IMG/VR virus record: IMGVR_UViG_2660238524_000006
From: a virus
Taxonomy: Duplodnaviria; Heunggongvirae; Uroviricota; Caudoviricetes
Strand: one strand, 5' to 3'
Length of the DNA stretch: 41,028 nt
The notes beneath the pieces were generated by a model. The model saw only the letters and a list, made by a program, of their open reading frames with translations, was not told the origin of the DNA and made no database searches. How positions within the stretch are numbered: position 1 is the stretch's first letter; the number at the start of each line of letters is the position of its first letter. Of this stretch, positions 6,710 through 7,218 are shown piece by piece. A program made the translations under genes and the position numbers.

Positions 6710-6911
6710 ATACAGCGAACGCCATTGGTTTAGTTGGATATTTACTGTGCCGGACAAAAACGGTTTGCGGGGAAATCTTAGTTAAGTAGAATGACTGCGG
6801 GTGCTTGAGGCTATCTGTCTCAGGCATGAACACCAAAAGGCAGATAGAGAAAAGCCCCAGTTAACATTACGCGTCCTGCAAGACGCTTAACATTAATCTG
6901 AGGCCATATCT

Positions 6912-6971
6912 ATGCGACACATAGAGATTAGCCTCTTACGGACCGAAAGGTCAAGGAGAAGCAGGCTATGA
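6912..6971 (+). CDS. mok-like coupling uORF (19 codons)
   Basis: ORF MRHIEISLLRTERSRRSRL whose TGA overlaps the hok ATG (cTATGAag). Confidence 0.3.
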   Translation: MRHIEISLLRTERSRRSRL

Positions 6972-7123
6972 AGCAGCAAAAGGCGATGTTAATCGCCCTG
7001 ATCGTCATCTGTTTAACCGTCATAGTGACGGCACTGGTAACGAGGAAAGACCTCTGCGAGGTACGAATCCGAACCGGCCAGACGGAGGTCGCTGTCTTCA
7101 CAGCTTACGAACCTGAGGAGTAA
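6968..7123 (+). CDS. hokD: Hok/Gef-family type I toxin (51 aa)
   Basis: MKQQKAMLIALIVICLTVIVTALVTRKDLCEVRIRTGQTEVAVFTAYEPEE, matching HokD/RelF as I recall it. Below the ORF-track cutoff. Confidence 0.85.
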   Translation: MKQQKAMLIALIVICLTVIVTALVTRKDLCEVRIRTGQTEVAVFTAYEPEE

Positions 7124-7192
7124 GAGACCTGGCGGGGGAGAAATCCCTCGCCACCTCTGATGTGTCAGGCATCCTCAACGCACCCGCACTTA

Positions 7193-7218
7193 ACCCGCTT
7201 CGGCGGGTTTTGTTTTTT
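7193..7218 (+). terminator. intrinsic terminator of the hok transcript
   Basis: CCCGC-TTCG-GCGGG hairpin followed by TTTTGTTTTTT. Confidence 0.6.

What the first reader, a model, noticed from the sequence alone, without database searches (positions are those of the whole stretch)
6780..7218. Stand-alone hok-family type I toxin with a coupled mok-like uORF; antisense Sok partner not resolved
A 51-aa Hok/Gef toxin gene (6968..7123) is preceded by a 19-codon uORF whose TGA overlaps the hok ATG, the coupling arrangement of mok/hok, and followed by a strong terminator. In Qin the homologous toxin lies in relBEF; here there are no relBE genes upstream, only an AT-rich leader and a small membrane-protein gene. 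Whether a Sok-like antisense RNA is encoded opposite the uORF start (around 6880-6930, where an inverted repeat TCTATG-CGACA-CATAGA sits) decides whether this is a functional addiction module or an unregulated toxin kept silent by mRNA folding.
Basis: partly seen in the sequence, partly recalled or inferred. Interest (0 to 1): 0.45.

Follow-up and report, generated by a model that had tools for sequence, protein, structure and literature searches.

The report
Prophage hok/mok/sok toxin-antitoxin locus
This is an ordinary, already catalogued hok/sok "host-killing" toxin-antitoxin cassette inside an E. coli lambdoid prophage; its antisense Sok gene and mRNA fold-back elements are all present, and the only slightly unusual feature is a shortened 19-codon leader reading frame.

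Summary
A 51-aa Hok/Gef toxin gene (6968..7123) follows a 19-codon uORF (6912..6971) whose TGA overlaps the hok ATG, and a terminator follows (7192..7218). The open question is settled in favour of a complete hok/mok/sok module. Rfam's sok/hok-leader model hits 6799..6970 at 106.7 bits (gathering 59). [quoted passage not shown] Transferring the SokW annotation places Sok at about 6918 to 6850 on the minus strand. Its promoter is TTGACC-18-TAATCT, and the RNA ends in a strong hairpin followed by a U-rich tail. The first 12 nt of the mRNA pair with 7173..7185 (tac/fbi), with compensatory changes relative to hokB. The anti-SD (ucb) and dcb elements are also present. The Hok CDS is identical in nucleotide sequence to K-12 hokD, but K-12 has lost the entire leader and sok behind relBE. 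The same 591 bp occur at 100% identity in many E. coli chromosomes, where the gene is annotated hokD. The short mok comes from a 2-nt deletion in the target-hairpin loop. It is a common allele, and R1 genetics predict it should still work. Verdict: already known, low interest.

The parts
6764..6792 (+). Putative hok promoter: -35 TTTGCG (6764..6769), 17-nt spacer, -10 TAGAAT (6787..6792)
   Evidence: Read. It sits 7 nt upstream of Rfam model position 1 (6799) and both hexamers are identical in phage 933W. Too weak for the consensus scan. Inferred, not shown.
6799..7216 (+). Full-length hok mRNA (about 418 nt)
   Evidence: The 5' end is taken from the start of the RF01794 model and the 3' end from the terminator. 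MFE -175.1 kcal/mol, z = -8.2.
6799..6810 (+). tac element (GGGUGCUUGAGG), the 5' partner of the fold-back
   Evidence: Pairs with 7173..7185 in the MFE fold. The duplex is -21.5 kcal/mol and 4/1000 shuffles do as well. Compensatory changes relative to K-12 hokB.
6801..6827 (+). Local 5' hairpin formed once the 3' end is removed (metastable/tac-type hairpin)
   Evidence: Fold of 6799..7170. It corresponds to the tac pairing described for R1 (PMC9841398).
6854..6860 (+). ucb / anti-SD (GCCCCAG) that sequesters the mok Shine-Dalgarno in the full-length mRNA
   Evidence: Pairs with CUGAGGC 6898..6904 in the MFE fold. Homologous to R1 A70-C72.
6850..6918 (-). Sok antisense RNA gene (about 69 nt; 5' end near 6918, 3' end near 6850)
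   Evidence: Coordinates transferred from the sokW misc_RNA of 933W. The start lies 7 nt into mok, compared with 9-11 nt for K-12 sokC/sokB. The RNA folds at -29.8 kcal/mol, z = -4.4, and ends in CUUUUCUCU. Transcription is not shown.
6925..6954 (-). Sok promoter: -35 TTGACC (+ strand 6949..6954), 18-nt spacer, -10 TAATCT (+ strand 6925..6930)
   Evidence: Homologous to TTGCCT-17-TAACCT of sokW, whose -10 was mutated to abolish antitoxin activity (PMC8621323). The hexamers are conserved in all loci of the same allele class. Not found by the consensus scan.
6900..6935 (+). Sok-target hairpin. Lower stem: mok SD GAGGC (6900..6904) paired with dcb GCCUC (6931..6935). Upper stem: UCUAUG/CAUAGA, containing the mok AUG. 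Loop: CGACA
   Evidence: Structure of the RF01794 alignment and the MFE fold. All 25 distinct alleles of the lineage fold into the same two-tier hairpin despite different upper-stem sequences.
6912..6971 (+). mok leader ORF, 19 codons, with its TGA overlapping the hok ATG (ATGA)
   Evidence: Read. There is a 2-nt deletion relative to phage Rac, Evi and 933W directly after ATGC. 13/109 loci share this geometry, and the allele is exact in 815 E. coli records.
6953..6958 (+). hok Shine-Dalgarno (AAGGAG); it overlaps the Sok -35 on the opposite strand
   Evidence: Read. Conserved in R1, 933W and K-12 hokD.
6968..7123 (+). hok toxin gene, 51 aa; CDS identical in nucleotide sequence to K-12 hokD (relF)
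   Evidence: PF01848, 82.9 bits; phrog_251, 2.8e-33; CDS identical to K-12 hokD. Annotated hokD in RefSeq genomes.
7106..7109 (+). TACG TadA editing motif at the Tyr47-Glu48 codons (potential Tyr-to-Cys recoding)
   Evidence: Read. The motif and its role are described for hokC/D/E-type genes in bioRxiv 10.1101/2025.08.07.668861. Editing was not tested here.
7130..7153 (+). 10-bp GC-rich stem-loop with a GAAA loop in the 3' UTR; probably the 3'-end protective hairpin of the processed mRNA
   Evidence: Present in both the full-length and the truncated folds. Analogous to the last stem-loop of truncated R1 hok mRNA. Inferred.
7173..7185 (+). fbi element (CCUCAACGCACCC), the 3' partner of the fold-back
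   Evidence: Nearly invariant across viral loci. Retained in K-12 hokD.
7192..7218 (+). Intrinsic terminator of the hok mRNA
   Evidence: 7-bp stem, 5 GC pairs, T run.

Best explanation
The region is a complete hok/mok/sok type I toxin-antitoxin cassette of the hokD/hokW lineage. It lies in the early-right (nin-like) region of an E. coli lambdoid prophage, between the replication genes and DUF968-RusA-Q. The proposed mechanism is inferred by homology to plasmid R1 hok/sok and Sp5 hokW-sokW. A weak promoter makes a stable mRNA of about 418 nt starting at 6799. Its 5' end (tac, 6799..6810) pairs with the 3' fbi element (7173..7185), and its mok Shine-Dalgarno is masked by the anti-SD GCCCCAG. 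The full-length RNA is therefore neither translated nor bound by Sok. Slow 3' trimming removes fbi, and the 5' end refolds. The mok SD then sits in the SD/dcb hairpin (6900..6935), which exposes the Sok target. An unstable Sok RNA of about 69 nt is transcribed from TTGACC-18-TAATCT on the minus strand (6918 to 6850). It pairs with the mok start region, blocks mok translation and triggers RNase III cleavage. When Sok falls, through loss of the element, a transcription stop or prophage induction, ribosomes translate the 19-codon mok and run across the hok SD. They terminate at UGA on the hok AUG (AUGA) and so allow Hok synthesis. Hok then depolarises the inner membrane. The likely biological role is prophage retention and/or earlier lysis on induction, as shown for HokW. 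Shown here: sequence homology, all the structural elements, and how widespread the allele is. Inferred: transcription of Sok, processing, coupling and toxicity in this context.
For: RF01794 hits 6799..6970 at 106.7 bits, E = 2e-23, covering the full model 1-157. That is comparable to the K-12 hokC (118) and hokB (110) leaders, and there is no hit at K-12 hokD. Hok matches PF01848 at 1.2e-23 and its CDS is identical to K-12 hokD. The locus is 93% identical to 933W hokW/mokW/sokW, including the promoter hexamers, tac, ucb, SDs, dcb and fbi. hokW-sokW is an experimentally validated toxin-antitoxin pair that depends on RNase III and Hfq (PMC8621323). The tac/fbi fold-back forms in the MFE fold. 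It gives -21.5 kcal/mol, 4/1000 shuffles do as well, and there are compensatory changes relative to hokB. The truncated RNA refolds its 5' end. The Sok RNA folds as a single-stranded 5' tail plus a long hairpin and a U-rich end, z = -4.4. The target hairpin is maintained in all 25 alleles. R1 genetics show that mok needs to be translated only as far as the hok start region, and exactly 19 mok codons precede the hok start in R1 (PMC9841398). The 591-bp region is 100% identical in many E. coli genomes. The 91-nt mok/Sok-promoter allele is exact in 815 records, which argues against a recent disabling mutation.
Against: The strict sigma-70 consensus scan finds no promoter on either strand of 6600..7400; the Sok -10 matches only 3/6 and the spacer is 18 nt. 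mok is truncated relative to most relatives, which have 68-70 codons. The same 2-nt deletion shortens the target loop to 5 nt and leaves it without a YUNR motif, although 51/109 related loci also lack one. The RNAfold MFE of the truncated RNA shows the local 5' hairpin and not the published tac/ucb stem. The chromosomal hokA/B/C loci were reported unable to mediate post-segregational killing (cited in bioRxiv 10.1101/2025.08.07.668861). There are no expression data for this allele.
Confidence: 0.88

Rival explanations
1. It is a decaying, non-functional hok/sok relic. The 2-nt deletion that truncates mok and shrinks the Sok-target loop would have uncoupled or weakened regulation, and the cassette would merely persist in a prophage, like the chromosomal hok loci reported to be inactive.
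For: mok has 19 codons against 68-70 in 96 of 109 related loci. The loop lacks YUNR. The promoter scan is empty. The chromosomal hokA/B/C loci did not mediate post-segregational killing. K-12 hokD shows that this lineage can decay.
Against: Every element is intact: promoter hexamers, tac, ucb, SDs, dcb, hok ORF, fbi and terminator. R1 genetics show that stops in mok beyond the hok start do not impair hok translation. The allele is exact in 815 E. coli records and in 12 other viral contigs. The hairpin energy is the same as in other alleles.
Confidence: 0.09
2. It is an unregulated toxin gene with no antisense partner, kept silent only by the mRNA fold-back.
For: No consensus sigma-70 promoter on the minus strand. 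RefSeq annotates no sok gene at this locus.
Against: The minus strand opposite the mok start is homologous to the annotated SokW and to the sokW promoter that was validated by mutation. The predicted RNA has a terminator-like hairpin and a U-rich tail. The leader matches the Rfam family built on Sok-regulated loci.
Confidence: 0.03

Closest known systems
hokW-mokW-sokW of Stx2 phage 933W / Sakai prophage Sp5 (AF125520; Takada et al. 2021, PMC8621323)
   Same: 93% nucleotide identity over the locus. Same hok promoter hexamers, tac, ucb, mok SD and ATG position, dcb, hok SD and fbi. Hok is 51 aa in both. Sok lies antisense across the mok start. Both are carried by lambdoid prophages.
   Different: mokW is 70 codons and in frame with hokW, whereas here mok is 19 codons and ends on the hok ATG. 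The target-loop and Sok 5'-end sequences differ. The Sok promoter is TTGACC-18-TAATCT here and TTGCCT-17-TAACCT there. Four C-terminal residues differ (T45V, A46D, P49S, E51K). The terminator differs. The position in the phage genome differs: nin-like region here, near the right end in 933W.
hokD (relF) of the E. coli K-12 Qin cryptic prophage
   Same: Identical Hok CDS, and a 3' UTR with fbi and terminator (98.9% over 6954..7217). Same kind of Qin-like prophage neighbourhood: DicF, ydfA-C, DUF968/YdfU and Q.
   Different: K-12 lacks everything upstream of about -15: no hok promoter, tac, ucb, mok or sok, and no RF01794 hit. There hokD is the third gene of relBE-hokD. The window carries the intact form.
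hok/mok/sok (parB) of plasmid R1 and IncF plasmids
   Same: Same architecture and the same set of RNA elements. Exactly 19 mok codons lie upstream of the hok start. Sok lies antisense to the mok start region.
   Different: The sequence is much more diverged than 933W. HokW, the window's close relative, is 44% identical to R1 Hok (PMC8621323). R1 mok is 70 codons, in the +1 frame, and overlaps all of hok. The R1 tac/fbi stem is shorter (7 bp, GGCGCUU/AAGCGCC). R1 is on a plasmid and has a demonstrated post-segregational killing role.
Chromosomal hokB/mokB/sokB and hokC/mokC/sokC of E. coli K-12
   Same: Same Rfam family (110-118 bits). Sok starts 9-11 nt inside mok. hokB has a tac/fbi fold-back that covaries with this locus.
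   Different: mokB (55 aa) and mokC (69 aa) overlap hok extensively. These loci are core-chromosomal and not prophage-borne.

Membership tests
[quoted passage not shown] | Small hydrophobic toxin of the Hok/Gef family (Pfam PF01848) | tested here: met
   51 aa; PF01848 at 82.9 bits against a cut-off of 22, E = 1.2e-23; phrog_251 at 2.8e-33; CDS identical to K-12 hokD.
[quoted passage not shown] | Conserved hok mRNA leader / Sok region (Rfam RF01794) at or above the gathering score | tested here: met
   106.7 bits against a gathering score of 59, full model 1-157, 6799..6970 on the + strand. Negative control: K-12 hokD gives no hit.
[quoted passage not shown] | Leader ORF (mok) that starts inside the Sok target and is translated at least as far as the hok start region | tested here: met
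   ATG at 6912 with SD GAGG at 6900..6903. 19 codons end at a TGA that overlaps the hok ATG. It is shorter than the canonical 55-70-codon mok, but R1 genetics show that only the part up to the hok start region is needed.
[quoted passage not shown] | Cis-encoded antisense Sok gene, with its own promoter and terminator, across the mok start | tested here: met
   Homology to the annotated SokW of 933W gives 6918..6850 on the minus strand. The promoter is homologous to the sokW promoter validated by mutation. The RNA forms a hairpin with a U-rich tail. The consensus scan was negative. This is met at sequence level only.
[quoted passage not shown] | tac/fbi long-range 5'-3' fold-back in the full-length mRNA | tested here: met
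   12 bp plus one bulge in the MFE fold. -21.5 kcal/mol, 4/1000 shuffles as good, compensatory changes relative to hokB.
[quoted passage not shown] | mok SD sequestered by an upstream anti-SD (ucb), with an alternative SD/dcb target hairpin | tested here: met
   GCCCCAG 6854..6860 pairs with CUGAGGC in the full-length fold. The GAGGC/GCCUC hairpin forms in all 25 alleles and is part of the Rfam consensus structure.
[quoted passage not shown] | 3' processing that triggers refolding to a form that is translatable and binds Sok | tested here: inconclusive
   In silico removal of the 3' end refolds the 5' end into a local hairpin. The published tac/ucb stem is not the MFE, and processing itself cannot be tested with these tools.
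[quoted passage not shown] | Toxicity of Hok, and its neutralisation by Sok through RNase III | not testable with these tools
   Supported only by literature on relatives: the HokD CDS is lytic when overexpressed, and hokW-sokW has been validated.
[quoted passage not shown] | YUNR U-turn motif in the Sok-target loop (an accessory, rate-enhancing feature, not a defining one; recalled from Franch et al. 1999) | tested here: not met
   The loop GCGACAC has no YUNR, but 51/109 related loci lack it as well, while R1 and 933W have it. It therefore does not bear on membership.
relBE-hokD (relBEF) operon arrangement of K-12 Qin | hok lies immediately downstream of relB-relE and is co-transcribed with them, without its own leader | tested here: not met
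   Homology to K-12 begins about 15 nt before the hok ATG. Upstream of that the window has the hok leader and no relE.

The most novel reading that the evidence does not exclude
The 19-codon mok would be a natural 'minimal mok' that couples hok translation purely by ribosome transit and termination-reinitiation at AUGA. In this phage-borne lineage the leader ORF occurs in all three frames relative to hok: 57 nt upstream and in frame (70 codons), 58 nt upstream (68 codons), and 56 nt upstream (19 codons). The few nucleotides after the mok ATG, which form Sok's 5' end and the target loop, are hypervariable, while the hairpin energy stays constant. Together these would mean that the Mok peptide is irrelevant, and that indels in the loop both reset the mok frame and create distinct Sok specificity classes. 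Such classes could let several prophage hok/sok loci coexist in one cell without cross-talk.
Probability: 0.45. Interest if true: 0.3.

Novelty: already known. Interest (0 to 1): 0.1.

Why it matters
It matters little beyond annotation. The locus shows what an intact hokD looks like, with its own promoter, leader, mok and sok. The textbook K-12 hokD/relF is a truncated copy that was captured behind relBE. RefSeq records annotate only the hokD CDS here. They omit mok and sok, and they carry a doubtful opposite-strand CDS over the hok 3' UTR. The variation in mok frame and the hypervariable Sok recognition region are a natural data set that agrees with the R1 mutagenesis conclusion that only translation up to the hok start region matters. 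That is a modest, confirmatory point.

Tried and rejected
1. The sigma-70 and terminator consensus scan of 6600..7400 found no promoter on either strand and only the hok terminator. I do not take this as evidence against Sok, because the validated sokW promoter would fail the same thresholds.
I used individual folds instead.
3. I tested whether two hok loci from one host genome carry different Sok-recognition alleles. Only three informative pairs were available: one identical and two different, against a 9% chance of identity for a random pair. This is inconclusive.
4. A literature search for 'sokD' found nothing relevant. One search call failed on phrase length.
5. Pfam and PHROG searches of the upstream 59-aa ORF found nothing. 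Codon-level comparison gave 0 synonymous against 1-5 non-synonymous differences, so I do not accept it as a gene.
6. Within-lineage covariation in tac/fbi could not be assessed, because both elements are almost invariant across the viral loci. The covariation evidence comes from hokB.
7. I considered the relBEF operon context and rejected it.
8. I considered whether the IS1 insertion affects hok and rejected it. The IS1 lies about 1 kb upstream (5006..5772), and the locus downstream matches IS1-free prophages.

Full report
**Observation**

- The hok ORF is 6968..7123, 51 aa.
- The uORF starts at ATG 6912. It runs for 19 sense codons to a TGA at 6969..6971, which overlaps the hok ATG as ATGA.
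- The inverted repeat is TCTATG-CGACA-CATAGA at 6909..6925.
- The terminator has its stem at 7192..7209, followed by a T run.
- The protein matches Pfam HOK_GEF at E = 1.2e-23 and PHROG 251, 'MokW-like host killing'.

Two details need correcting. The hok leader is 45-49% GC and so is not AT-rich; the AT-rich stretch is 6400..6700. The upstream 59-aa ORF (6530..6709) has no family match. It stays open in related loci, but the variants compared show only non-synonymous differences.

**Identity and context**

The 591 bp around the locus are 100% identical to many complete E. coli chromosomes, including ST131 EC958 and ETEC H10407, where the CDS is annotated hokD. In EC958 the locus sits in a lambdoid prophage. 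The gene order is replication genes, small ORFs, hokD, DUF968, RusA, antiterminator Q, tRNAs and then lysis genes. The window is the same kind of prophage. Relative to EC958 it has:
- an IS1 at 5006..5772;
- a different immunity segment, with an HTH plus S24-peptidase repressor;
- an extra DNA methylase gene after Q.

Phage records annotate homologues as MokW, hokW, 'host killer protein' or mok/hok.

**Relation to K-12 hokD**

The Hok CDS and the 3' UTR (fbi and terminator) are essentially identical to K-12 hokD/relF. Homology starts only about 15 nt upstream of the ATG, and upstream of that point K-12 has relE. K-12 Qin gives no hit to Rfam RF01794. The window scores 106.7 bits across the full model. 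That is similar to the K-12 hokC (118.3) and hokB (109.7) leaders, and to phages Rac (111.1) and Evi (113.5). The window therefore carries the intact form of a locus that K-12 holds only in truncated form.

**The Sok partner**

Phage 933W (AF125520) annotates sokW as a 71-nt minus-strand RNA that starts 9 nt inside mokW. The window is 93% identical to that locus, and transferring the coordinates gives Sok at about 6918 to 6850 on the minus strand.
- The Sp5 study abolished antitoxin activity by mutating the sokW -10. Its primers place that -10 opposite AGGTTA, just upstream of GCCTCTTAC.
- The homologous hexamers in the window are -10 TAATCT (+ strand 6925..6930) and -35 TTGACC (+ strand 6949..6954), with an 18-nt spacer. 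This combination is shared by the loci of the 56-nt class and most of the 58-nt class.
- A start 7 nt downstream of the -10 gives 6918. This agrees with the transferred annotation, and with K-12 sokC and sokB, which start 9-11 nt inside mok.
- The predicted RNA has a free 5' tail and a long hairpin, and ends in CUUUUCUCU (-29.8 kcal/mol, z = -4.4).
- The generic consensus scan finds no promoter, because the -10 matches only 3/6.

**mRNA fold-back and switch elements**

I confirmed that the R1 hok sequence I used as a reference is 100% identical to IncF plasmid records.
- In the MFE fold of 6799..7216 (-175.1 kcal/mol, z = -8.2), nt 1-12 (GGGUGCUUGAGG) pair with CCUCAA(C)GCACCC at 7173..7185.
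- The isolated duplex is -21.5 kcal/mol, and 4/1000 shuffled 5' ends do as well. K-12 hokB has the same duplex with compensatory changes: G12-C becomes A-U, and U7-A becomes C-G.
- The anti-SD GCCCCAG (6854..6860) pairs with the mok SD region CUGAGGC (6898..6904) in the full-length fold. This matches the ucb/SD arrangement described for R1.
- When the 3' end is removed, the 5' end refolds locally.
All 25 distinct alleles in 109 loci fold into the same two-tier hairpin. Most have energies of -12 to -15 kcal/mol, although their upper-stem sequences differ.

**The short mok**

Relative to Rac, Evi and 933W, the window has a 2-nt deletion in the hairpin loop directly after ATGC. The table gives the mok geometry in 109 loci, made up of the fetched loci plus the window.

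| Distance of mok ATG from hok ATG | Frame and length | Loci |
|---|---|---|
| 57 nt | in frame with hok, 70 codons, as in 933W mokW | 89 |
| 58 nt | R1-like +1 frame, 68 codons | 7 |
| 56 nt | 19 codons, ATGA overlap, as in the window | 13 |

The window's 91-nt allele is exact in 815 E. coli records. R1 mutagenesis shows that mok must be translated up to the hok start region but not beyond it, and that exactly 19 mok codons lie upstream of the hok start. The short mok is therefore expected to function. The deletion also leaves the 5-nt loop without a YUNR motif, but 51/109 related loci lack one too.

**Function**

The following is inferred from relatives.
- HokW-SokW is a working type I toxin-antitoxin pair that depends partly on RNase III and Hfq.
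- After mitomycin C treatment SokW falls and HokW rises in a RecA-dependent way, and phage release halves without the locus.
- The HokD CDS is lytic when overexpressed.
- The chromosomal hokA/B/C loci failed to show post-segregational killing, so activity of this allele still needs an experiment.

**Verdict**

This is a known system, the hokD/hokW-type hok/mok/sok cassette, and it is complete. The only mild curiosity is the plasticity of the mok frame and the hypervariable Sok recognition segment. Novelty: already known. Interest: about 0.1.

Noticed in passing
window 6912..6925, and loci L005-L124 at the equivalent position: Across 109 loci of this hok lineage, the leader ORF occurs in all three frames relative to hok: 57 nt upstream in frame (89 loci), 56 nt upstream with 19 codons (13), and 58 nt upstream in the +1 frame (7). 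The roughly 10 nt after the mok ATG, which form Sok's 5' end and the target loop, are hypervariable, while the flanks are nearly invariant and the hairpin energy stays constant.
   Followed up: partly
window 6530..6709 (+): Unannotated 59-aa hydrophobic ORF with a strong AGGAGG Shine-Dalgarno, lying upstream of hok. It is open and 91-100% identical in 17 related loci. It has no Pfam or PHROG match, and all observed codon differences are non-synonymous (0 synonymous against 1-5 non-synonymous), so coding status is doubtful.
   Followed up: partly
window 7165..7344 (-): 59-aa minus-strand ORF that RefSeq annotates as a hypothetical protein (WP_001112736.1). In phage Evi a shorter ORF at the equivalent position is called 'Mobile element protein'. 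The ORF matches phrog_2947. It overlaps the hok 3' UTR (fbi and terminator) and the start of the + strand ORF 7291..7563, and it may be an annotation artefact.
   Followed up: no
window 7106..7109 and 7062..7065: TACG TadA recognition motifs inside hok. One is at Tyr47-Glu48, where editing would recode Tyr to Cys, as reported for hokC/D/E-type genes. The other is at Val32-Arg33, where editing would be synonymous.
   Followed up: partly
window 5006..5772: IS1 copy (InsB ORF 5254..5757) inserted relative to the EC958 prophage, inside the DUF7167 gene. The 10 bp of EC958 sequence at the insertion site align on both sides of the IS1, consistent with a target duplication. It lies about 1 kb upstream of the hok promoter.
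   Followed up: partly
window 360..411 (-): DicF antisense sRNA (RF00039, 69.3 bits), next to dicB/ydfA-C homologues. This marks a Qin-like early-left region.
   Followed up: no
window 12446..12635 (+) and 34911..35034 (+): Rfam hits to the sRNAs STnc100 (132.4 bits) and STnc490 (146.1 bits) within the prophage late region.
   Followed up: no
window 11497..11569 and 11673..11746 (+): Two prophage-borne tRNA genes downstream of the Q antiterminator. The corresponding EC958 features are tRNA-Ile and tRNA-Arg.
   Followed up: no
window 9929..11457: Segment absent from the EC958 prophage, carrying a 349-aa N6/N4 DNA methylase (PF01555, 2.4e-44) between Q and the tRNAs.
   Followed up: partly
window 1463..2530: Immunity segment that differs from EC958. 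It has a 257-aa minus-strand HTH plus Peptidase_S24 (CI/LexA-like, SOS-cleavable) repressor at 1559..2332.
   Followed up: partly
L128 (933W) 1341..1553, and most viral loci: In the majority allele class, mok is in frame with hok. Initiation at the mok ATG would then produce a 70-aa Hok with an N-terminal extension, not a separate overlapping peptide. I did not examine whether that product is toxic.
   Followed up: no
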